Shown here: positions 18,467 through 51,578 of the stretch, in pieces
Position numbering within the stretch: position 1 is the stretch's first letter
How the letters are laid out: each line of letters begins with the position of its first letter
NCBI GenBank assembly: GCA_946641515.1
Contig: CAMPBT010000003.1
Span: 140,120 to 204,119 of the forward strand
Source of the DNA: an uncultured Bacillales bacterium
GTDB taxonomy: Bacteria; Bacillota_I; Bacilli_A; RFN20; CAG-449
DNA length: 64,000 nucleotides
Direction of reading: 5' to 3'
Program-made: the position numbers and the translations under genes
Notes under the pieces: generated by a model
Database searches by the model: none
The model's input: only the letters and a program-made list of their open reading frames with translations
Told to the model about the DNA's origin: nothing

Positions 18467-19771
18467 TTATGCTGTAGTAGATTTCCAGCTATCAGGCATT
18501 GTTCTTACAAACATTTCTTTGTCGTCAATAGTAATTTTTAATTTCATCCAATCACTATCTTTTAATTTAGTAGTATTATTTGAACAAGCTAATCCTATAG
18601 AAATTTTATTAGATGTAGTATCTTTTCCACAAGATACAACAACATTACCATTCATATCTTTTCTACCTGTTGTATGAATGTATTGTCCACCAATTGCAAC
18701 ACCAGTTTTATCACTAGAAGTTTTACCATTTTTATCTGTTTTACTATTAGCAGTACAAATTTCATATGATTCATAAATAGAAGTGACATATACTTCATCA
18801 GTCCATTTAGAAATACGATCAATAAATTGTTGGGTTGGGAATTGATTTTCCGTTGCCCCAGTATATTCATCAGTACCACAGCAGCAAGAAACCACACACA
18901 TCTTAGGTTTAATAATATTTAATAAGCAGTCATTAGAAGATGTTTTAGAACCATGATGTCCTGCTTTAAATAAATCAACTTCAGGTAAGGTTTTTTCTTT
19001 AGTAGAACCATCATAATATGCTGATAATTTTTCTTCACCTTCTTTTTCAAGGTCACCTGTTAATAAGAAATATTTATTTCCTTCACTAGAAGCATATGTG
19101 AATAAAGTACAAACTGAATAATTGTTTTCATCACTAGAAGTGTTCCAGTAATAATAATTATAAACAATATCCATAGTTACTTTATCAGATAAAACATATG
19201 ATTTAGATGCACCTTCAACGTTATCAAAACATTGATCTGCATAAAACATTTTTGCACCGTTAGTACTTACTTGATTTTCAAATGCTGTTACCATTCTTTT
19301 ATAAGTAGCAGAATCTTTATTTGAATTTCTATTTTTAATAATAACACCTGCTGAATAATGTTCTAGGATTTTAGGGAAGGCATCAATATGGTCTTGGTCA
19401 CCATGAGTTGCAATAACATATTCAAGTTTTCCATCTTTTACATAATTATCCATGTAACTAATAGTAGTACTTGCAGAGCTTGAAAGAGAACCTGCATCAA
19501 TTAAAATATCGTTATCACCAGCTTTAATATAAACAGAGTCTCCAGCATATTCATTACCTAAAGTCATAAAATGAATTTGGAAATCATCATATACAACTCC
19601 TTCAATCTTTTCACTTTTATGAGAATGATTTGTATTATCTTCACTTGGTTTAATATCAAATAAGCCATTTGCTTGAGCGTATGCTCCCCCTGCTCCAATA
19701 GCGCATCCAACAATAAGTGATAATAAACTTAAGCCAAAAGTTAAGCCTACAGAAAATTTCTTTTTCGCCAT
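18467..19771 (-). CDS. Membrane-anchored ComEC/Rec2-like metallo-beta-lactamase fold hydrolase (probable nuclease)
   Basis: N-terminal TM/signal; GDSVYIK...LIDAG, THGDQDH, LLTGDLE, KAGHHGSKTSS. Confidence 0.8.
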   Translation of the reverse strand: MAKKKFSVGLTFGLSLLSLIVGCAIGAGGAYAQANGLFDIKPSEDNTNHSHKSEKIEGVVYDDFQIHFMTLGNEYAGDSVYIKAGDNDILIDAGSLSSSASTTISYMDNYVKDGKLEYVIATHGDQDHIDAFPKILEHYSAGVIIKNRNSNKDSATYKRMVTAFENQVSTNGAKMFYADQCFDNVEGASKSYVLSDKVTMDIVYNYYYWNTSSDENNYSVCTLFTYASSEGNKYFLLTGDLEKEGEEKLSAYYDGSTKEKTLPEVDLFKAGHHGSKTSSNDCLLNIIKPKMCVVSCCCGTDEYTGATENQFPTQQFIDRISKWTDEVYVTSIYESYEICTANSKTDKNGKTSSDKTGVAIGGQYIHTTGRKDMNGNVVVSCGKDTTSNKISIGLACSNNTTKLKDSDWMKLKITIDDKEMFVRTMPDSWKSTTA

Positions 19772-20068: not shown

Positions 20069-20515
20069 CTAAAATAAGATAGAAACTAAATCTGCAATAG
20101 CTTCTAATGTCTTCGCATCTTCTTCATTAAAATTGTCATAATCATCCGAATCTAAATCAATTACTCCATAACATTCATTATTCTTAATGATAGGAATTAC
20201 AATTTCACTTCTAGATGTAGAAGAACATGCAATATGTCCTTTAAATTTATTAACATCAGGAACAAGCTGAGTAACCTTAGTATATGCAGCTTTACCGCAT
20301 ACTCCCTTATTAAAAGGAATTAAAGTACATGCCACAGATCCTTGGAAAGGACCTAAGAATAATTCATCATGCATTTCATTTGATAAATAAAACCCTGCCC
20401 AAGAAGTTCCTTTGATATTATCTTTAATAAGTGATGAGAGATTGCTTAAATTTGACACTAAAGGGAGCTTCTCATCAATTAATCCCTTTGCCATAGTAAT
20501 TAATTCATTATTCAT
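20069..20515 (-). CDS. msrC: GAF-domain free methionine-R-sulfoxide reductase (start likely ATG 20515)
   Basis: LGPFQGSVAC, KGVCGKAA, GHIACSSTSRSEIVIP: all three Cys of fRMsr are present. Confidence 0.85.
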   Translation of the reverse strand: MNNELITMAKGLIDEKLPLVSNLSNLSSLIKDNIKGTSWAGFYLSNEMHDELFLGPFQGSVACTLIPFNKGVCGKAAYTKVTQLVPDVNKFKGHIACSSTSRSEIVIPIIKNNECYGVIDLDSDDYDNFNEEDAKTLEAIADLVSILF

Positions 20516-22025
20516 CTTTTTCAAGCTCATAAATCTCTGAATATTTGTTTTCAAGATAATCACAATAATAATCAGGATTTAAATCTTCTCCTGTAACTTT
20601 CTTTATTAATTCTTTAGGTGAAAGCATTCTAGCTTCACTATAAATGTTTTTAGTTAACCAATCTTTAATGACATTGACTTTACCTTCACTTAATAATTTA
20701 TCAACATCAAGTTCTTCTTTCATCTTATGGTAGATTTGTGCAGAATAAGCATTTCCTACAGCATATGAGAAGAAATAACCAAAGCCAGTTGACCAATGTA
20801 CATCTTGTAAAATACCTTCTTTATCTGAAGGAGGGGTAATACCAAGATATTCTTTATATTTCTCATTCCAAATACGAGGCAAATCATTTACATCGATATC
20901 ATCATTATTGAAAATTAATTTTTCAATTTCATAACGAACAATAATATGTAAACAATAAGTAAGTTCATCCGCTTCTGTTCTAATTAATGAAGGTTGAACT
21001 TTATTAATTGCCTTATAAAATTCTTCTACAGATACATCTTTTAAAGTAGAAGGAATAATCTTCTTATATTTAGGGAAGATGTAATTAACAAAGTTCTTAT
21101 TCTTAGCAATGATGTTTTCAAAGAATCTGGATTGAGATTCATGAAATGCCATAGAACACGCTCCATAAACAGAAGTACCTTCATATTTCTTATTAAGGTT
21201 TTGTTCATAAATACCGTGTCCACCTTCATGAGCACAAGAATAAACATTACTAGTCCAATCATTTTCATAATAATGAGTAGTAATTCTTACATCATTATGA
21301 GTTAAGCCATTAGTAAAAGGATGTTCAGTTTCTTTAAGCATACCTCTACTAAAATCATATCCAATACTTTTAGCAGTTAACTTACCTAACTTTTCTTGTT
21401 GAGATTTATTAACTCTAGTATGTAAGAAATCAGTCCTAATATTAACTTTAGAATTCATTACTTTCTTAAGTAAAGGAACAATTCTCTTTTTTAATTTATC
21501 AAAGAAGATATCAAGTTCTTTTTCAGAAGTACCCTCTTCATACATATCTAAATAAGTATTGTAATAAGAGTTATCAACCGCTCCATAATATTTAGCAAGA
21601 ACTTTAGAATAATGAATTACTTCTTTAAAATAAGGTGCCCAAATAGAATAATCATCATTTTGTTTAGCCTCTTTCCAATAATAAGAAGATTGATTCATTA
21701 CTTTCTGAGCTTCTTTTGCAACTTGTTCAGGTACTTTACGATCTCTCTCTACATCTTTTAAATCAAGAGTTACTGCTCTTTGATATAAAGGAGGTAAAGA
21801 ATCATAATGCTTTTTCATTTCTTCTAGTAATCCTAAATATTCATTAGAAGTAGTTCTTTTAAAATATTCCATATAGAAATAATTTAAGATTTCTTCTCTT
21901 TCTTTATGAGCCTTTTTTGGAGCGTCAGTTTCATCTTCAAATCCAATAATAGATAAAGTATTTGAAATCATCTCATTAACTTTATAATACTCCCTATATT
22001 TTTTAATAAGTTCTTTAGTATTCAT
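20508..22025 (-). CDS. Carboxypeptidase, peptidase family M32
   Basis: HPF, DVRITT, HEGGH, HESQSRF, IRTEADE, GILQDVHW. Confidence 0.95.
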   Translation of the reverse strand: MNTKELIKKYREYYKVNEMISNTLSIIGFEDETDAPKKAHKEREEILNYFYMEYFKRTTSNEYLGLLEEMKKHYDSLPPLYQRAVTLDLKDVERDRKVPEQVAKEAQKVMNQSSYYWKEAKQNDDYSIWAPYFKEVIHYSKVLAKYYGAVDNSYYNTYLDMYEEGTSEKELDIFFDKLKKRIVPLLKKVMNSKVNIRTDFLHTRVNKSQQEKLGKLTAKSIGYDFSRGMLKETEHPFTNGLTHNDVRITTHYYENDWTSNVYSCAHEGGHGIYEQNLNKKYEGTSVYGACSMAFHESQSRFFENIIAKNKNFVNYIFPKYKKIIPSTLKDVSVEEFYKAINKVQPSLIRTEADELTYCLHIIVRYEIEKLIFNNDDIDVNDLPRIWNEKYKEYLGITPPSDKEGILQDVHWSTGFGYFFSYAVGNAYSAQIYHKMKEELDVDKLLSEGKVNVIKDWLTKNIYSEARMLSPKELIKKVTGEDLNPDYYCDYLENKYSEIYELEKDE

Positions 22026-22082
22026 ATTATATTCACCTACTTGTTTATATCTATTTTATAGATATTAATAATAGAAATGAAC

Positions 22083-22116
22083 AAAAAAACTCCACTTTAA
22101 CAAAAAGTGAAGTTTT
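22083..22116 (-). terminator. Second terminator downstream of the purine riboswitch
   Basis: AAAACTTCACTTT-TTGTT-AAAGTGGAGTTTT followed by further T. Confidence 0.7.
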
Positions 22117-22131
22117 CGTAATTTAATAAAT

Positions 22132-22168
22132 AAAAAAGTTGCGCTGATAAGGAAACGGTCAGGCAACT
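22132..22168 (-). terminator. Riboswitch expression-platform terminator
   Basis: AGTTGC-CTGA...TCAG-C-GCAACT followed by TTTTTATTT. Confidence 0.6.
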
Positions 22169-22180
22169 GAAAGGAAAACT

Positions 22181-22241
22181 TTCGTAGAGGTAGATTGTGG
22201 TCTACCGTAGAGACATTGGACCGATTTCCAATATATACGAA
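22181..22241 (-). ncRNA. Purine riboswitch aptamer, guanine-type discriminator
   Basis: UUCGUA-UAU-AUUGGA-AAUCGG-UCCAAU-GUCUCUAC-GGUAGA-CCACAA-UCUACC-UC-UACGAA: P1/P2/P3 pair perfectly, J2/3 is close to the consensus GUUUCUAC, the L2 GG/L3 CC kissing bases are kept, and position 74 is C. Confidence 0.85.
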
Positions 22242-22391
22242 TATAACTTATGAGCTATCCTACTTGCATAGGACAGTGATTAATATATTACATATCTAAA
22301 AAGAAAAAAGAAACACTTTTTTGAAAATTTTTGAATTTTCTTTCAAATGTTTCTTTTTGTATCAATTATTTAATTAATTTAAATACTTATT

Positions 22392-23780
22392 TTAATCGAT
22401 ATTCTCGTGTTCTTCGTCTACTTTGACTTCTGTATCTTTTTTACCAAATCCCGTAACAAAATATACTAAGATACCAAGAATTAAAGCACATGCAACTGAT
22501 GTTAATGTAACTTTACCAAATGTTAATGTAAGTCCACCGATACCTGCAATTAAGATAACTGAGACTGTGAATAAGTTTCTGCTATCACCAAGGTCTTCTT
22601 TTTGAATCATCTTTAAACCAGATACTGCGATGAATCCGTATAATGTCATACAAACACCACCCATGACACATGATGGAATTGTTGCAAGTAATGTAACGAA
22701 TGGTGCAATGAATGAGCAAACGATACATAAAATTGCTGTAGTAATAATTGTTGTAATTGAAGCGTTCTTTGAAATAGCAACACAACCTACTGATTCACCA
22801 TAAGTTGTATTTGGACATCCACCGAAGAATGCACCAGCGATTGAACCAACACCATCGCCGAGTAATGTTCTATGTAAACCTGGTTCTTCAAGTAAATCAG
22901 AACCAATGACTGATGATAAGTTTTTGTGGTCTGCAATGTGTTCTGCGAAAACTACGAATGCAACTGGAATGTAAGCAACTGCAATTGTACCAACATATCC
23001 CCATGAGAAGTTATCCCATGTTTCCTTTGAGAAGAATGCTTTTACAAATGTGAAGTCTGGATACCACTGCATTGAAGCAAATTTTGTGAAATCAATAACT
23101 TTTAATGCATCGTTATTTGCTAAATAACCAATACCTGTGAAGATAGCAGCGACTGCATAGCCTGCTAAGATACCTAAGATGAAAGGAATCATCTTAACAA
23201 ATTTTTTGCCATATACTGAACAAGCAACTACTGTAAATAATGTAACTAAGCCACAGAATAATGCTAAGAATTTATTTGTTGTAACAACACCTGCTGCATC
23301 TTTAAATGAGCCTGATAATAAATCTCCAACAGCATTTCCTGCTAAGCTTAAGCCAATGATTGCAACTGTAGGGCCAATTACAACTGCTGGCATAATTTTG
23401 TTGATCCATCCTGTACCACAGAATTTAACAACTAATGCGATTGCAACATATACTAAACCTGCAAAGAATGCACCTAAAATTAAACCTAAGTAACCAAGTG
23501 AAGCAGAAGTAGCACCTGCGAATGCTGCAAGCATTGAACCAATGAATGCGAATGAAGAACCTAAGAAGACTGGGCTCTTAAATTTTGTGAATAGTAAATA
23601 TACTATTGTACCAACACCTGCACCGAATAATGCTGCAGACTGGCTCATGCCGTTACCAATAATTGCAGGAACAGCGATTGTTGCTGCTAAAATAGCAAGC
23701 ATTTGTTGGAAAGCAAAGATTAATGTTTTTCCAACTGATGGTCTATCTGATACACCATAAATTAGACCGTTCTTTTCCAT
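22392..23780 (-). CDS. uraA: NCS2 family nucleobase permease, UraA/PyrP-like
   Basis: SPVFLGSSFAF, AEHIADH, PNTTYGESVG, GGVCMTLYGFIAVSG. Confidence 0.85.
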   Translation of the reverse strand: MEKNGLIYGVSDRPSVGKTLIFAFQQMLAILAATIAVPAIIGNGMSQSAALFGAGVGTIVYLLFTKFKSPVFLGSSFAFIGSMLAAFAGATSASLGYLGLILGAFFAGLVYVAIALVVKFCGTGWINKIMPAVVIGPTVAIIGLSLAGNAVGDLLSGSFKDAAGVVTTNKFLALFCGLVTLFTVVACSVYGKKFVKMIPFILGILAGYAVAAIFTGIGYLANNDALKVIDFTKFASMQWYPDFTFVKAFFSKETWDNFSWGYVGTIAVAYIPVAFVVFAEHIADHKNLSSVIGSDLLEEPGLHRTLLGDGVGSIAGAFFGGCPNTTYGESVGCVAISKNASITTIITTAILCIVCSFIAPFVTLLATIPSCVMGGVCMTLYGFIAVSGLKMIQKEDLGDSRNLFTVSVILIAGIGGLTLTFGKVTLTSVACALILGILVYFVTGFGKKDTEVKVDEEHENID

Positions 23781-23803
23781 AAGTTTTCCTCCCCTTCTAT
23801 TTC

Positions 23804-23836
23804 AAAAAAAAGGATTTGGCACTAATACCAAATCCT
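23804..23836 (-). terminator. Attenuator terminator upstream of uraA
   Basis: AGGATTTGGTA-TTAG-TGCCAAATCCT followed by T7, about 24 nt before the uraA start. Confidence 0.9.
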
Positions 23837-23942
23837 AAAAAGCAAAAATAGAAAATAAAGTCTTTTTTGAACGAGAAACAAGAGGACAAAAACCCCTTGA
23901 GCTTTCCTTATACTCAATTGGACGAATGTTTTTATTAACCAT
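23835..23942 (-). CDS. Putative 35-aa leader peptide MVNKNIRPIEYKESSRGFCPLVSRSKKTLFSIFAF
   Basis: GGGAG RBS 6 nt before ATG 23942; open frame to TAG at 23835-23837, which overlaps the terminator 5' arm. Confidence 0.6.
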   Translation of the reverse strand: MVNKNIRPIEYKESSRGFCPLVSRSKKTLFSIFAF

Positions 23943-24009
23943 ATTTGTCTCCCAATTCCTGTTTTTTATAATAACAAATATTAGGTAATTCGTGAAGATG
24001 GTTTTTTTA

Positions 24010-29338: not shown

Positions 29339-30847
29339 TTAATTACCCCAAATAGCGTCAATATATTCTGGATGGTCAATGAATGGGTTTCTATTACCTT
29401 GAGTCTTTTGACCGCCATTGTTTCTATGTCTTTCCCAATCATCAACTGGATCTTCATGTGCCCATTTAACAAATAAGTTTCTAGCATATGTAGTTAAACC
29501 AAAGTTAGGTGAACTAATGCTTGATGTAAATACTTTACTGCCATCTCCATTTGTAAATGTAGTTGAATTCCAAGCAACACATGCATAGAAATAAGTTCTT
29601 GCAAAATCACCTTTCCATTGATCATTTGGTTCAAATACTGTTCCACTGCATCCAGGGAAATTAGAATCTCCTAAGCCACAATAATTATTTGCAGCTGCTT
29701 TAGTAAATGAAGATACTTCTCCAAATGGAAAATTACTTCTTACACTATTAATCTTTCCATCAGTAGGATAAATAATATAGATATCACATCCTTGGTTTGC
29801 AGTAGATTCACCCCACCATGATTTAGGAATTGAATGTTCCCTATTATACATATCGCCTTCTTTTGAATAAGTAGAAGCGTGGTCACCAGGTTTATACTTA
29901 GATATACATGAATAATAGTCGTTAATATATCCATCAGATTTTAAATCAGTAACTTTATAAGCATCCCAAAGTCCACCATATCCAAGTGAATGATATCCTT
30001 TTTTAGATACAGTTTTTAATTCATCAAATAATGCCATGCCAGTTTTACCTTTACATGATGCATAATGTTCTACTAAATCACCTGTATCTACTGTATCTGT
30101 AAATGGTTCGTAAGTTGTAGAACCTCCAGTAGTACCCGAACCAGATGATCCTCCACTATTTGGATGATCAAAATTATAATCTGTGATTTCTACATCATAG
30201 AAATGTGCAGGATAAGAATCACTTAAATGTTTTGTTTCTGACAATCTAAAATAATTATTGCTTCCAAATGAACCAATATAGTATTTTTTAGAATCTAATG
30301 ATGTTAAGAATGTATTGTATTCAGCATCATATTCCCATACAGATGATGCAGTATCAGTTATATCTAAATTGTAAAAGGTTTTTTTATTACTTTTAGCAAT
30401 TACGGCATTAATATATTTTTTATTGCCATTAAGATTATATGTTAAATAATAACCGCCTTCTGCAGCCTCAATTTTTAATGTAACACTAGATGAAGGAGCA
30501 TCTGCAGTAGCAATATAATATTTTTGATTACTACTATATTCAGTTCCCTTCCAATAAGTCATCTTGTTTAGACCTTTATGGTCCATACCAAAGTAGTATT
30601 CAACCCCGACCTGAGGTTCCTTAACTAAAGGATCTTTTTGTTCTACTTCAGTTTTTCCACTGCTTGAATTAACTTCATTACCATTTCCCTCAGATGAAGT
30701 TGATTGTACAGATTCACTATTGTTAGATGTTTCTGAGATGGTGTCTCCACCATTATTTTTGCCGTTAACATCATTACTACCATTATTAGTTCCGCAGCTA
30801 ATTAAAAGTAATGAAGATAGAGCGGCAAGAATTAATCTTTTGCTCAT
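29339..30847 (-). CDS. Lipoprotein with C-terminal endonuclease I (EndA/Bsn-type) domain
   Basis: Lipobox LISC; NREHSIPKSW, YPTDGKINSVRSNFPFG, KGDFARTYFY, GNRNPFIDHPEY. Confidence 0.9.
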   Translation of the reverse strand: MSKRLILAALSSLLLISCGTNNGSNDVNGKNNGGDTISETSNNSESVQSTSSEGNGNEVNSSSGKTEVEQKDPLVKEPQVGVEYYFGMDHKGLNKMTYWKGTEYSSNQKYYIATADAPSSSVTLKIEAAEGGYYLTYNLNGNKKYINAVIAKSNKKTFYNLDITDTASSVWEYDAEYNTFLTSLDSKKYYIGSFGSNNYFRLSETKHLSDSYPAHFYDVEITDYNFDHPNSGGSSGSGTTGGSTTYEPFTDTVDTGDLVEHYASCKGKTGMALFDELKTVSKKGYHSLGYGGLWDAYKVTDLKSDGYINDYYSCISKYKPGDHASTYSKEGDMYNREHSIPKSWWGESTANQGCDIYIIYPTDGKINSVRSNFPFGEVSSFTKAAANNYCGLGDSNFPGCSGTVFEPNDQWKGDFARTYFYACVAWNSTTFTNGDGSKVFTSSISSPNFGLTTYARNLFVKWAHEDPVDDWERHRNNGGQKTQGNRNPFIDHPEYIDAIWGN

Positions 30848-30986
30848 AAGTTATCTTTTTCCCCCATATTTGCATAAGACTATTATAGTATTAATTTAAG
30901 ACTACATTCAATATGATAAGAACATTTGTTCCTTTCTTGTAAAGCGTAAAAAAGGCATATCTTTCGATATACCTTAAATAGTCTAT

Positions 30987-49706: not shown

Positions 49707-51578
49707 TTATTCAACTGTATAGAAACTTACAACAAAGTAATCTGTAGCATTCTTGACTGCACCAACATTAGTATATTTATTAGTATTACTTGTACCAATA
49801 AATTGGTCTTTATTGTCGTAAACTGTTTTTACAGACTTTGTAGCAGCATCCCATGTATAAACTGAACTTGCTGTTTTTTCAAAATAAATTCCAACATATG
49901 ATTTTCCTTCTTGTTTATAGAGGTTAACATATGATTTTACACCACTAACTGTTGAAGCTAAATTAAAACCACCAGTGACTTCTTCAATTGTAAAATCAGC
50001 ACTTTGTGAAATACTTGTAGTTGATCCTGCATAAGTTCCAGCCATAGCACCAGTTAAGAAATAAATATCTTCACCTTTGTTAGTATTAACAATACCAACT
50101 TTATATGTTTTGCCTGCTTCAACATTTTCTACTTTTTTAACATTTACAGAACTTGCTTTAATTTCAAAATCTTTTGTAAATGGTGTATCTGCGCCATATT
50201 CAACATTTAATTTTAATGTTGCTTTTCTTTCTTGTTCAGTTGGCTTAATTGTTAATTTGCCATTTGCTAATGTAAAGATATTTGAATCTGCACCATCTGC
50301 TAATGACCAAGTAGCAGTTACACCTGGGAACTTAGTTGCATCTAAAGATGGTAAAGTGACTTCTGTATCTTTTGTAACATTTGATGGAATTTCAACACTT
50401 GATACTAAAGCATTTTGGATTAATGTAACTTTTTGTTCTGCTGTTAATGATGCAAAGTTAAATGAAGGAGCTTTACCTGTGAAATAGAATCTTGTACCAT
50501 TTTCTGGTTTGCCAAATTTCACATCACCAACTTTACCACAATCATAACCTGTGTAATTTCTCCATAAACCATATACAGAGAATTCAACATCAAGAGTTAA
50601 ACCAGCAACTGATGCTAATTCTTTCATAACACCATCAAATCCATCATAACCAAGTAAGAACTTAGTATTATCTGTTGGATCGACAAGTAAAATCTTATCT
50701 GTTGATGTTTTTACAACTTTTGCGTTTGCTTTATATTTTGTAACGAATTCACCTGAAGGTTGTGCAAAGCCATCAGCATATGCATTTAATTTATTAACTA
50801 AATCTTTGATTGTTGTAGGTGTTGTTGCAGTATTAACTGTATTTGTTGTGTTATCATCAACAATATCATATGTTGGAGTAACACCTTCTGGTAAACCATA
50901 ATAACGATATGCACTAATTGCAGTGATAGATAATTTATTACCAACTTCAACGTTCTTAGCAATATTTGTATCGTAAATGTAGAATTCTGCTGATTCATCA
51001 GCGACAACTACACCAGAAGAAGCTTTTTCAACAACGACAACTTGGTTCTTTAAGCCAAATCTTACTGCAGTATCTTTTGCATTTGCACCATCACATGTAG
51101 CTAATGCAGCAGCGATAGTATCATATTGAGTAACGTTTTCACGTTCTGGAACTGTGAATTCAAATGCTTTTGATCTTGTTGCACCATTAACAGTGATTGA
51201 AGCTGTTAAGTGCATCTTTGATTCACCTGATCCTGGTTCTGTTAAAGTAACTTTAATTCTTGTCTTACCATCTTTTGCTTTAACTTCTTCAACTTTTGCA
51301 GAATCACCATAAGCTGTCCAGGTAATTGGGTATGATGTTTCTCCATAAACTACTGCTGAAACAACTTTGAATGATGAAGTAACAGTTTGTTTATTTTCAT
51401 TTAATAAAACTCTTTTTAAGATTGTATCTGCTAATTTTTCATCTTCAGTTGCAGCTGCTTCCTGAGTTGGAGGAAGAATTTCAGAGTGTTGATTTGTTGA
51501 ACCATTACCACCACAACCGACTAATGAGCCGATTGTGAGGATTGATAATGCAAGTGTTAATAATTTTTTGTTTTTCAT
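49707..51578 (-). CDS. Multidomain lipoprotein (Ig-like, OB-fold-like and beta-rich C-terminal domains)
   Basis: Lipobox LVGC; ITW...LTASITVNG...FEFTV (Ig-like); VVVADESAEFYIYD...VEVGNKLSIT (OB-like); domain calls by eye. Confidence 0.6.
   Translation of the reverse strand: MKNKKLLTLALSILTIGSLVGCGGNGSTNQHSEILPPTQEAAATEDEKLADTILKRVLLNENKQTVTSSFKVVSAVVYGETSYPITWTAYGDSAKVEEVKAKDGKTRIKVTLTEPGSGESKMHLTASITVNGATRSKAFEFTVPERENVTQYDTIAAALATCDGANAKDTAVRFGLKNQVVVVEKASSGVVVADESAEFYIYDTNIAKNVEVGNKLSITAISAYRYYGLPEGVTPTYDIVDDNTTNTVNTATTPTTIKDLVNKLNAYADGFAQPSGEFVTKYKANAKVVKTSTDKILLVDPTDNTKFLLGYDGFDGVMKELASVAGLTLDVEFSVYGLWRNYTGYDCGKVGDVKFGKPENGTRFYFTGKAPSFNFASLTAEQKVTLIQNALVSSVEIPSNVTKDTEVTLPSLDATKFPGVTATWSLADGADSNIFTLANGKLTIKPTEQERKATLKLNVEYGADTPFTKDFEIKASSVNVKKVENVEAGKTYKVGIVNTNKGEDIYFLTGAMAGTYAGSTTSISQSADFTIEEVTGGFNLASTVSGVKSYVNLYKQEGKSYVGIYFEKTASSVYTWDAATKSVKTVYDNKDQFIGTSNTNKYTNVGAVKNATDYFVVSFYTVE

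What the first reader, a model, noticed from the sequence alone, without database searches (positions are those of the whole stretch)
22083..22260. Guanine-type purine riboswitch with no purine gene behind it, followed by two terminators
A complete aptamer (P1 UUCGUA/UACGAA, P2 AUUGGA/UCCAAU, P3 GGUAGA/UCUACC; U22, U47, U51 and C74 kept in xpt numbering) lies downstream of uraA. It differs from consensus: U24, U73 and 6-nt L2 and L3 loops. A terminator follows (22132-22168), then after 15 nt a second one (22083-22116), then a plausible separate promoter (TTCATT-17-TAAAAT) for the carboxypeptidase. There are three readings: (a) a relic of a deleted xpt/pbuG-type gene; (b) a free-standing RNA whose length switches with guanine; (c) real control of the peptidase operon. 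Reading (c) has some support, since AAGUUUUC just after P1 is complementary to GAAAACUU in the second terminator's 5' arm, and UACGAA is repeated just before that arm.
Basis: partly seen in the sequence, partly recalled or inferred. Interest (0 to 1): 0.7.

Follow-up and report, generated by a model that had tools for sequence, protein, structure and literature searches.

The report
Gene-less guanine riboswitch with two terminators
A genuine guanine-sensing RNA switch, complete with a working stop/go structure, sits between a uracil permease gene and a peptidase operon with no purine gene behind it; a sister species keeps it intact, so it is probably still used, most likely to set the length of a small non-coding RNA.

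Summary
Rfam's purine model hits window 22260..22165 (minus strand) at 46.5 bits against a cut-off of 37. All ligand-contacting nucleotides of the guanine class are present. Two intrinsic terminators follow (T1 22168-22132, T2 22117-22082), then an M32 carboxypeptidase operon with no link to purines.

New findings:
- **Sister species.** One sister species (uraA 81% aa identity, fourfold-degenerate sites near chance identity) has the same unit after uraA. It shows three compensatory pairs in P3. The linker plus T1 are 92% identical, and T2 has changed in sequence but still folds. It lacks the M32 gene.
- **Antiterminator.** L2 plus the P2 3' strand pairs with the T1 5' arm and T1 loop (13-14 bp). 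This is present in both species and is stronger than about 98% of shuffled controls. T1 is therefore a guanine OFF switch.
- **T2.** T2 has no effective anti-structure.

Best reading (0.4): this is a self-contained, selected, gene-less unit in which guanine chooses between an RNA of about 145 nt and one of about 195 nt.

Rivals are leaky read-through into the peptidase operon, and an inert relic.

It is a known aptamer class in an unusual context. No usable expression data were found.

The parts
22298..22358 (-). Terminator of the upstream uraA-like permease gene (a long hairpin followed by a U-rich run). It separates the riboswitch unit from uraA transcription.
   Evidence: Folds at -16.9 kcal/mol (z = -4.5). 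The sister's equivalent folds at -17.8 kcal/mol. Its 3' half is conserved in the sister.
22285..22290 (-). -10-like hexamer TAATAT, the putative promoter of the riboswitch unit. The sister has TATAAT at the matching place. The -35 is weak (TTTCTT).
   Evidence: Read from the sequence. It is below the threshold of the consensus scan, so this is inferred, not shown.
22256..22275 (-). 5' hairpin UGUCCUAUGCAAGUAGGAUA. It lies in a segment that is gapped in the sister alignment (17 gap columns).
   Evidence: Alignment gap in the sister. It is predicted to pair in every fold.
22242..22255 (-). Conserved single-stranded leader GCUCAUAAGUUAUA, 5' of P1. It is a candidate seed for pairing with start-codon regions.
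   Evidence: 12 of 14 columns are identical in the sister, and GCUCAUAAGUU matches 11/11. It has a 13-nt perfect complement to the start-codon region of the nuclease lipoprotein, and an 8-9-nt complement to the uraA start-codon region in both species.
22181..22241 (-). Guanine-type purine aptamer, from the P1 5' strand to the P1 3' strand. The core is U22, A23, U24, G46, U47, C48, U49, C50, U51, A52, C53, U73, C74. P2 and P3 each have 6 bp and a 6-nt loop.
   Evidence: RF00167 at 46.5 bits; the sister scores 52.8 bits. 98% of cells are paired, and three P3 pairs are changed on both sides. No SNP was found in strains that are 2.4% diverged.
22169..22180 (-). Linker AGUUUUCCUUUC. In the ligand-free fold it forms the hairpin GAAAG/CUUUC, which takes up the 3' end of P1.
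   Evidence: 11 of 12 positions are identical in the sister. The pairing is present in both species.
22215..22229 (-). Antiterminator 5' strand, GGAAAUCGGUCCAAU (L2 plus the P2 3' strand).
   Evidence: Pairs with 22167-22151 (14 bp in the window, 13 bp in the sister). The two changes between species both favour it.
22151..22167 (-). Antiterminator 3' strand, GUUGCCUGACCGUUUCC (the T1 5' arm plus the T1 loop).
   Evidence: At the transcript length that ends in the T1 loop, the antiterminator fold beats the ligand-free aptamer fold by 3.0 kcal/mol (window) and 3.8 kcal/mol (sister). Only 9/500 and 11/500 shuffled tails do as well.
22132..22168 (-). Terminator T1, the guanine-dependent one: a 9-bp stem with a bulged C, an 11-nt loop and a U6 run.
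   Evidence: Folds at -10.4 kcal/mol, z = -4.4. 34 of 37 alignment columns (92%) are identical in the sister, and all 8 counted pairs are kept.
22118..22131 (-). Spacer of 14 nt between T1 and T2. It contains UUAAAUUAC, which is conserved in the sister.
   Evidence: 11 of 15 columns are identical. One strain has a substitution and a 1-nt insertion at 22131.
22082..22117 (-). Terminator T2, constitutive: a 14-bp stem, a 5-nt loop and a U7 run.
   Evidence: Reported by the consensus scan. Folds at -14.6 kcal/mol. The sister's stem differs in sequence but keeps the hairpin and has a U8 run. The strain SNP at 22092 turns a U.G pair into U-A, and the SNP at 22099 lies in the loop. No competing structure was found.
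22053..22081 (-). Promoter-like TTCATT-17-TAAAAT, directly abutting T2 and upstream of the M32 operon. The sister has TTTAAT-17-TACAAT in the same geometry.
   Evidence: Read from the sequence. It scores 8/12 and is below the scan threshold. The similarity of this stretch between the two species is not significant.
30842..30854 (-). AUAACUUAUGAGC, the start-codon region of a 502-aa lipoprotein with a C-terminal endonuclease I domain. It is perfectly complementary to the leader at 22255-22243 and is a possible trans target (a lead only).
   Evidence: It is invariant in strains that are about 5% diverged here. No ortholog was found at the syntenic place in the sister, so conservation could not be tested.

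Best explanation
The element is a functional guanine/hypoxanthine-class purine riboswitch that forms a small transcription unit with no gene of its own.

**Layout.** A -10-type promoter sits just after the uraA terminator. From there the RNA runs through a conserved leader, then the aptamer, then terminator T1.

**With guanine.**
- The bound aptamer keeps P2 and the L2-L3 loop contact closed.
- The T1 5' arm is then free, so T1 forms.
- The RNA ends after about 145 nt.

**Without guanine.**
- L2 and the 3' strand of P2 pair with the T1 5' arm and T1 loop. This is the antiterminator.
- The linker hairpin takes the end of P1.
- T1 cannot form, and the polymerase runs about 50 nt further to T2.
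- T2 is a constitutive terminator that insulates the peptidase operon, so the RNA ends after about 195 nt.

**Output.** The output is therefore a non-coding RNA whose length and fold depend on guanine.

**Origin and use.**
- The unit most likely began as the leader (aptamer plus T1) and trailing terminator (T2) of a purine gene that was lost before the two species split.
- It has since been kept by selection for a use of its own.

**What is shown and what is inferred.**
- Shown: the aptamer, both terminators, the alternative pairing and the conservation.
- Inferred: ligand binding, the promoter, the switching itself, the origin by gene loss and any function of the RNA.
For: **Aptamer.**
- RF00167 scores 46.5 bits in the window and 52.8 bits in the sister.
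- The core nucleotides are those of guanine-I aptamers. The deviations fall at the known variable positions 24, 48 and 73 (PMC2018637).

**Selection.**
- Between the two species, fourfold-degenerate sites are 43-66% identical, against about 44% expected by chance.
- The aptamer is 80% identical. Six of its 12 differences form three compensatory P3 pairs.
- The linker plus T1 are 92% identical, and the leader GCUCAUAAGUU matches 11/11.
- Strains that are 2.4% diverged have no SNP from 22100 to 22361, where about 6 would be expected. Their SNPs in T2 preserve the structure.

**Switch.**
- The antiterminator has 14 bp in the window and 13 bp in the sister, and 100% of its cells are paired.
- It is 3.0 and 3.8 kcal/mol more stable than the free aptamer before the T1 3' arm is transcribed. 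It becomes less stable than aptamer plus T1 afterwards.
- It is stronger than 98% of shuffled tails in both species.

**Insulation.**
- T2 is kept as a hairpin followed by a U run even though its sequence has changed.
- No competing structure for T2 was found.
- uraA has its own strong terminator upstream.

**No gene.**
- There is no ORF between the promoter and T2.
- The first downstream gene differs between the two species: M32 in the window and the GAF gene in the sister.
Against: **Missing evidence.**
- There is no expression evidence. Three rumen metatranscriptomes gave contigs on uraA and on the peptidase operon, but none on 22026-22440.
- The promoter is only a -10-like hexamer and is below the scan threshold.
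- Only two species carry the unit, so the covariation statistics are weak (58/500 shuffles reach the observed value).

**Doubts about the parts.**
- A73U abolishes binding in the B. subtilis xpt aptamer context (PMC2018637), and the 6-nt loops are atypical, so the window's copy might bind poorly.
- The extra 50 nt of the long form is just the T2 hairpin, whose sequence is not conserved. It is unclear what the long RNA could do that the short one cannot.

**Points that favour other readings.**
- In a third lineage (L094) the region after uraA is replaced, so the unit is not indispensable there, or it lies elsewhere.
- Evidence for a promoter of the operon's own after T2 is weak. This favours the read-through rival.
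Confidence: 0.4

Rival explanations
1. The riboswitch is the leader of the downstream peptidase operon (M32, GAF, 95-aa protein, MBL, TldD, PmbA). At low guanine the polymerase passes T1, and a useful fraction also passes T2. T2 would be leaky or controlled by an unknown factor. Guanine scarcity would then raise expression of the peptidases, much as GTP-sensing CodY does in other Firmicutes.
For: - Cis control of the next genes on the same strand is what riboswitches normally do.
- Purifying selection on the aptamer and antiterminator is most simply explained if read-through matters.
- The GAF-to-PmbA operon follows the unit in both species.
- Evidence for an independent operon promoter after T2 is weak: 8/12 matches, and the conservation is not significant.
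- The sister's T2 stem is A-U-rich and weaker (-9.4 kcal/mol in a 49-nt stretch, -11.1 kcal/mol in a 57-nt one).
Against: - T2 is maintained as a canonical hairpin with 7-8 U in both species and has no anti-structure. Selection that keeps a strong stop between a switch and its genes argues against cis control.
- No operon gene has a purine function.
- More distant relatives carry M32-GAF or TldD-PmbA without any riboswitch.
Confidence: 0.27
2. It is an inert relic. A purine gene between T1 and T2 was deleted, and the leader and trailing terminator survive by chance with no present function.
For: - The layout of leader, regulated terminator, 14-nt spacer and second terminator is exactly what a clean deletion of a riboswitch-controlled gene would leave.
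- The genome is small-genome-like and AT-rich (32% GC).
- Unchecked earlier notes report another gene-less riboswitch in this genome and an orphaned guanine riboswitch in Acholeplasma.
Against: - The same T1-spacer-T2 junction is present in the sister, so any deletion predates a split at which fourfold-degenerate sites are near chance identity.
- Since that split, the aptamer, linker and T1 have stayed 80-92% identical, with compensatory changes in P3 and structure-preserving changes in T2.
- Neutral DNA nearby is 25-58% identical.
Confidence: 0.12
3. It acts as a ligand-dependent 3' element of the upstream permease gene. uraA transcripts that escape the gene's own terminator would end at T1 or T2 depending on guanine, as the Listeria lysine riboswitch also terminates its upstream gene. 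Alternatively, the leader folds back on the uraA start region.
For: - The unit lies on the same strand directly after uraA in both species.
- The leader CAUAAGUU(U) is complementary to the uraA start region AA(A)ACUUAUG in both species.
- There is a precedent in LysRS (PMC8079631).
Against: - uraA has a strong terminator of its own in both species.
- Ending at T1 or at T2 does not change the coding content of the mRNA.
- An 8-9-nt match is within the tail of what other genes in the window show (3 of 54 genes reach 8).
Confidence: 0.08

Closest known systems
Guanine-I riboswitch of the B. subtilis xpt-pbuX type (Rfam RF00167)
   Same: - Three-way junction with the same ligand-contacting nucleotides (U22, U47, U51, C74).
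- GG/CC loop-loop pairs.
- An intrinsic terminator and a mutually exclusive antiterminator, so the predicted logic is a transcriptional OFF switch.
   Different: - No purine transport or metabolism gene follows it.
- P2 and P3 are each one base pair shorter, and each loop is one nucleotide shorter.
- It has U24 and U73.
- The antiterminator invades L2 and the P2 3' strand, not mainly the P1 3' strand.
- A second, constitutive terminator follows 14 nt after T1.
Rli55 (Listeria) / EutX (Enterococcus): non-coding RNAs controlled by an AdoCbl riboswitch (reviewed in PMC8079631, PMC5821096)
   Same: - A riboswitch with a ligand-dependent early terminator, followed by a second terminator and no ORF.
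- The ligand chooses between a short and a long non-coding RNA.
   Different: - In Rli55/EutX the extension is about 250 nt and carries ANTAR hairpins that sequester EutV.
- Here the extension is about 50 nt and holds only the T2 hairpin, whose sequence is not conserved.
- The ligand is guanine, not B12.
SreA/SreB of Listeria: terminated SAM riboswitches that act in trans (PMC8079631)
   Same: - The terminated riboswitch transcript could itself be a regulator.
- The conserved leader here is complementary to start-codon regions of other genes.
   Different: - SreA still controls its own downstream operon in cis.
- Here no gene is attached, and the trans pairing is only a computational lead.
Orphaned guanine riboswitch upstream of namA-ald in Acholeplasma laidlawii
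   Same: A guanine aptamer stranded in front of unrelated genes after loss of the genes it controlled, yet conserved.
   Different: That one was reported as no longer wired to a terminator switch. This one keeps a conserved terminator/antiterminator pair.

Membership tests
Purine riboswitch, guanine class (RF00167 / guanine-I) | Three-way junction P1-P2-P3 that matches the family covariance model above the curated threshold | tested here: met
   46.5 bits in the window and 52.8 bits in the sister, against a gathering score of 37. It is the best match in clan CL00123.
Purine riboswitch, guanine class (RF00167 / guanine-I) | Binding-pocket nucleotides U22, U47, U51 and C74, with an 8-nt J2/3 and a 2-nt J3/1 that carry no insertions or deletions | tested here: met
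   - J1/2 is UAU, J2/3 is GUCUCUAC and J3/1 is UC.
- There are no xanthine-II or guanine-II insertions (PMC9295807).
- U47 is present, so it is not an 8-oxoG riboswitch (PMC10556655).
- C74 means it is not an adenine riboswitch.
Purine riboswitch, guanine class (RF00167 / guanine-I) | L2-L3 loop-loop interaction (7-nt loops with two G-C pairs) | tested here: inconclusive
   - GG at the 3' end of L2 and CC at the 5' end of L3 are kept in both species.
- Both loops are 6 nt and both stems are 6 bp.
- The tertiary contact cannot be tested with these tools.
Purine riboswitch, guanine class (RF00167 / guanine-I) | Expression platform with mutually exclusive terminator and antiterminator | tested here: met
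   - The antiterminator pairs 22229-22215 with 22167-22151 and is conserved in the sister.
- It is 3.0-3.8 kcal/mol more stable than the free aptamer before the T1 3' arm exists.
- It is stronger than 98% of shuffled tails.
Purine riboswitch, guanine class (RF00167 / guanine-I) | Lies in the 5' leader of a purine transport, salvage or biosynthesis gene | tested here: not met
   - T2 comes next, then M32 carboxypeptidase, GAF, MBL, TldD and PmbA.
- In the sister, the GAF gene comes next.
Purine riboswitch, guanine class (RF00167 / guanine-I) | Binds guanine, hypoxanthine or xanthine | not testable with these tools
   - This needs in-line probing or ITC.
- A73U abolishes 2-aminopurine binding in the xpt context, but natural variants tolerate changes at position 73 (PMC2018637).
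Riboswitch-controlled non-coding RNA (Rli55/EutX type) | Ligand-dependent early terminator, then a second terminator, with no ORF in between | tested here: met
   - T1 and T2 are 14 nt apart, with no ORF.
- T1 is paired with an antiterminator.
Riboswitch-controlled non-coding RNA (Rli55/EutX type) | The long form carries a functional module that is absent from the short form | tested here: inconclusive
   - The extension is the spacer (UUAAAUUAC is conserved) plus the T2 hairpin, whose sequence is not conserved.
- No recognisable protein-binding or pairing module was found.
Riboswitch-controlled non-coding RNA (Rli55/EutX type) | Both RNA forms are detected in cells and respond to the ligand | tested here: inconclusive
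   The metatranscriptome contigs do not cover the unit, and absence from contigs is not informative.
Trans-acting terminated riboswitch (SreA type) | Base pairing with a distant mRNA that changes its translation | tested here: inconclusive
   - There is a 13-nt perfect complement to the start-codon region of the nuclease lipoprotein, and an 8-9-nt complement to the uraA start region.
- A 13-mer complement somewhere in the window arises in 62% of shuffles.
- No nuclease ortholog is available in the sister for a test.

The most novel reading that the evidence does not exclude
The unit is a guanine-gated small regulatory RNA, which would be the first example for the purine riboswitch class.

**Candidate targets.**
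- Its conserved 5' leader (GCUCAUAAGUU) would pair with start-codon regions of nucleobase and nucleic-acid scavenging genes.
- The match is 13 nt to the endonuclease I lipoprotein gene at 30854-30842.
- The match is 8-9 nt to the adjacent uracil permease gene in both species.
- The match is 8 nt to the OB-fold lipoprotein gene of the nuclease/ABC operon.

**How guanine would act.**
- When guanine is bound and the RNA ends at T1, the leader would be exposed.
- In the ligand-free long form, the freed T1 3' arm (CAACUU) could mask AAGUU of the leader.
- Plentiful guanine would then shut down extracellular nucleic-acid harvesting.
Probability: 0.13. Interest if true: 0.8.

Novelty: new variant of a known kind. 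Interest (0 to 1): 0.5.

Why it matters
Riboswitches are read almost by definition as controls of the gene behind them. Here a guanine riboswitch has no gene, yet it keeps its aptamer and its terminator/antiterminator pair under purifying selection in two species.

- **If it works as proposed:** it would extend the small set of riboswitch-gated non-coding RNAs, known so far for B12 and SAM, to the purine class.
- **Wider implication:** stranded leaders in reduced genomes could be recruited, not simply left to decay.
- **Practical caution:** assigning regulons from the position of a riboswitch alone would wrongly place an M32/TldD peptidase operon under guanine control.

Tried and rejected
The rest of this genome, including its other purine riboswitch, could not be examined.

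**Searches for more relatives**
- M32 against genome contigs found nothing above 47% identity, so it gave no sister genome.
- A degenerate aptamer pattern in metagenome contigs found only the same species.
- The expression-platform pattern found nothing in viral contigs.
- Laying rumen metagenome contigs at 80% likeness found no further relatives of the unit.
- More distant relatives have no purine riboswitch at these loci. This covers M32 at 51-60% identity, uraA at 75-76% and TldD at 73-75%.
- L094 (uraA 80%) has a rearranged region with a transposase-like gene after uraA.

**Expression data**
- The RNA runs X13, X14 and X21 are too sparse to say anything about the unit.

**Ideas tested and dropped**
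- Variant ligand classes (xanthine-II, guanine-II, 2'-dG, 8-oxoG, adenine) were rejected on the junction sequences.
- I first thought the sister keeps relics of a deleted M32 gene. The similarity is not significant (384/500 and 106/500 shuffles do as well), so the direction of the M32 indel is open.
- Walking the sister scaffold to find a nuclease ortholog failed. An IS110 element and unrelated genes lie at the syntenic place.
- A scan of the whole window for pairing partners of the linker, T1 loop and T1 3' arm gave nothing above background.
Full report
**What is there.** On the minus strand, Rfam's Purine model (RF00167) matches 22260..22165 at 46.5 bits against a gathering score of 37. It is the best match in its clan.
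- P1 is UUCGUA/UACGAA, P2 is AUUGGA/UCCAAU and P3 is GGUAGA/UCUACC.
- J1/2 is UAU, J2/3 is GUCUCUAC and J3/1 is UC.
- L2 is AAUCGG and L3 is CCACAA.

The pocket nucleotides of the guanine class (U22, U47, U51, C74) are all present. So are the supporting ones (A23, G46-C53, A52, U49, C50).

**Order of features along the RNA strand:**
1. The NCS2 permease gene (23780..22392). Its best match is uracil permease.
2. That gene's own long terminator hairpin, at -16.9 kcal/mol.
3. A -10-like TAATAT.
4. A 5' hairpin that falls in an alignment gap in the sister.
5. A conserved leader.
6. The aptamer.
7. A 12-nt linker.
8. T1 (22168-22132; -10.4 kcal/mol, U6).
9. A 14-nt spacer.
10. T2 (22117-22082; -14.6 kcal/mol, U7). 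It is the only hit of the terminator scan.
11. After a further 56 nt, the M32 carboxypeptidase gene, followed by the GAF, 95-aa, MBL-fold, TldD and PmbA genes.

None of the downstream genes has a recognisable purine function.

**Is it a variant ligand class?** No.
- Positions 24, 48 and 73 are the three known variable core positions of guanine aptamers. U24 occurs in high-affinity natural aptamers (PMC2018637).
- Xanthine-II and guanine-II carry insertions in J2-3 and J3-1 (PMC9295807). 8-oxoG riboswitches lack U47 (PMC10556655). None of these features applies here.
- Both hairpins are shortened symmetrically, by one pair and one loop nucleotide each. The GG/CC loop-loop pairs are kept.

**Where it comes from.**
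- Identical proteins place the window in sheep and cattle rumen metagenomes and in MAG GCA_002363635.1. The unit is invariant in five assemblies.
- The window is 32% G+C.

**A sister species.** The closest permease relative (81% aa identity by alignment; L090, extended as L098/L100) shows conserved synteny. The order is ZIP, tyrS, HPRT-like, GNAT, UPF0227, a 9.6-kb insert, then uraA. After uraA it has the same unit: an aptamer at 52.8 bits, then T1 and T2. These are followed directly by GAF, a 104-aa protein, MBL, TldD and PmbA, with no M32 gene.

- *How far apart the two species are.* Fourfold-degenerate sites in four shared genes are 43-66% identical, against about 44% expected by chance. 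Unconstrained sequence should therefore be close to randomised.
- *What is conserved.*
  - The aptamer is 80% identical.
  - The linker is 92% identical.
  - T1 is 92% identical.
  - The leader GCUCAUAAGUU matches 11/11.
  - Flanking non-coding DNA is 25-58% identical.
- *Compensatory change.* Six of the twelve aptamer differences are three double-sided changes that keep P3 paired. Overall 98% of cells pair, against 33-40% when the partners are slid.
- *T2.* It has diverged in sequence (64% identical) but is still a hairpin followed by U8.
- *Within the species.*
  - Strains that are 2.4% diverged have no SNP between 22100 and 22361, where about six would be expected.
  - The T2 SNP at 22092 turns a U.G pair into U-A.
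  - The T2 SNP at 22099 falls in the loop.
  - A third change lies in the spacer at 22131.

This pattern does not fit a decaying relic.

**The switch.**
- Folding the transcript up to the T1 loop gives the same alternative helix in both species.
  - GGAAA-(U)-CGGUC-CAAU (L2 plus the P2 3' strand, 22229-22215) pairs with GUUG-(CCU)-GACCG-UUUCC (the T1 5' arm plus T1 loop, 22167-22151).
  - The linker forms GAAAG/CUUUC on the end of P1.
- At that length the alternative fold is 3.0 kcal/mol (window) and 3.8 kcal/mol (sister) more stable than the ligand-free aptamer.
- Once the T1 3' arm is made, aptamer plus T1 is favoured by about 3-5 kcal/mol. This is the usual kinetic layout of an OFF switch.
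- Only 9/500 and 11/500 shuffled tails give as strong a competitor.
- All 13 shared antiterminator pairs hold in both species.
- The two differences between the species both fit the helix.
  - The P2 3' U becomes C, which turns U.G into C-G while breaking the P2 closing pair.
  - The L2 C becomes U, together with loss of its partner G in the T1 loop.
- This double duty explains why the T1 5' arm and loop are nearly invariant.

**T2 and the peptidase operon.**
- I found no structure that competes with T2. Its 5' arm is unpaired in the sister (pair probability at most 0.14).
- In the window, the second UACGAA can pair with the P1 5' strand, but this leaves an 11-bp T2. That state is also 3.7 kcal/mol less stable than the one with the full T2.
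- The AAGUUUUC/GAAAACUU complementarity cited for reading (c) is absent in the sister.
- A promoter-like TTCATT-17-TAAAAT abuts T2. The sister has TTTAAT-17-TACAAT in the same geometry.
  - Both score 8/12, below the scan threshold.
  - The similarity of this stretch is not significant.
  - An independent operon promoter is therefore plausible but unproven.
- The direction of the M32 indel is open.
  - M32 and GAF are adjacent in a 60%-identical relative without any riboswitch, which hints at loss in the sister.
  - The supposed relics of M32 in the sister are not significant.
- Relatives with TldD-PmbA at 73-75% identity have other neighbours and no riboswitch.

**Interpretation.** Three points are shown:
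- A bona fide guanine-class aptamer.
- A conserved terminator/antiterminator pair.
- A second conserved terminator, with no gene inside the unit.

Three points are inferred:
- Guanine stops the RNA at T1 (about 145 nt), and its absence lets the RNA run to T2 (about 195 nt).
- The unit is the leader and trailing terminator of a gene lost before the two species split. The T1-spacer-T2 junction is shared.
- The unit is kept for a use of its own.

I rank the readings as follows:

| Reading | Probability |
|---|---|
| Autonomous riboswitch-gated non-coding RNA | 0.40 |
| Attenuated feed into the peptidase operon | 0.27 |
| Inert relic | 0.12 |
| 3' element of uraA, by analogy with Listeria LysRS (PMC8079631) | 0.08 |

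Precedents for gene-less or trans-acting riboswitch RNAs are Rli55/EutX and SreA/SreB (PMC8079631; PMC5821096).

**A lead, not a finding.**
- The conserved leader is perfectly complementary over 13 nt to the start-codon region of a 502-aa endonuclease I lipoprotein (30854-30842).
- It is also complementary over 8 nt (window) or 9 nt (sister) to the uraA start region.
- Over 54 genes in the window, the in-register match lengths are 13 for the nuclease, 8 for uraA and 8 for an OB-fold lipoprotein. A fourth value of 8 is at an alternative start inside M32 that I judge not to be real. TldD has 7 and the rest have at most 6.
- A 13-mer complement somewhere in the window arises in 62% of shuffles. 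Only its position on a start codon and the nature of the gene make it notable.
- The sister has no ortholog at the syntenic place, so conservation could not be tested.

**Limits.**
- Only two species carry the unit.
- There are no usable RNA data. Contigs from three metatranscriptomes cover the uraA leader, the uraA 3' part and the operon, but not 22026-22440.
- The promoter is weak by consensus.
- Ligand binding is untested.

Noticed in passing
window 30842-30854 (minus) versus 22243-22255 (minus): There is a 13-nt perfect complementarity between the riboswitch leader and the start-codon region of a 502-aa lipoprotein with a C-terminal endonuclease I domain. Both stretches are invariant in diverged strains.
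   Followed up: partly
window start codons at 51578, 30847, 23780 and 18429; L098 at 15820 and 4907: The context ACUUAUG recurs at real start codons. Four of 54 genes in the window have ACTT at positions -4 to -1, against about 0.35 expected. They are the nuclease lipoprotein, the OB-fold lipoprotein, uraA and TldD. In the sister it occurs at uraA and the HPRT-like gene. This could be a preferred initiation context or a shared pairing site.
   Followed up: partly
window 23789-23949 (minus): The uraA leader, which ends in the hairpin AGGAUUUGG...CCAAAUCCU followed by U8, is assembled as a separate short contig in two of the three rumen metatranscriptomes examined. Its terminator and flanks are closely conserved in the sister. 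It looks like an actively used attenuator, and is the subject of another first-stage note.
   Followed up: no
L098 6281-15546 versus window about 24100: The sister species carries a 9.6-kb insert between UPF0227 and uraA that the window lacks. It holds four unnamed proteins, an ABC/FtsX pair, a radical SAM enzyme, a PLD-family protein and an ACPS. The sister also has an IS110 element where the window has the nuclease lipoprotein gene.
   Followed up: no
window 20508-22025 versus L090 7663-7794: The M32 carboxypeptidase gene is present in the window species and absent from the sister at exactly this junction. In the window its stop codon overlaps the GAF start. The direction of the change (gain or loss) could not be settled.
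   Followed up: partly
window 22256-22275 (minus): The window has a 20-nt hairpin at the predicted 5' end of the riboswitch RNA. It lies in a segment that is gapped in the sister alignment (17 gap columns). It may be a 5' stabiliser.
   Followed up: no
L091 7183-7257: A c-di-GMP-I riboswitch (57.4 bits) lies upstream of an unnamed gene in a more distant relative. In that relative, uraA sits in a cluster with upp, a phosphoribosyltransferase, a NUDIX gene and PRPP synthetase.
   Followed up: no
window 18467-19771 (minus): The MBL-fold protein of the downstream operon is most similar to the MBL domain of ComEC/Rec2 (62.5 bits, below the cut-off). That domain is a DNA nuclease domain.
   Followed up: no
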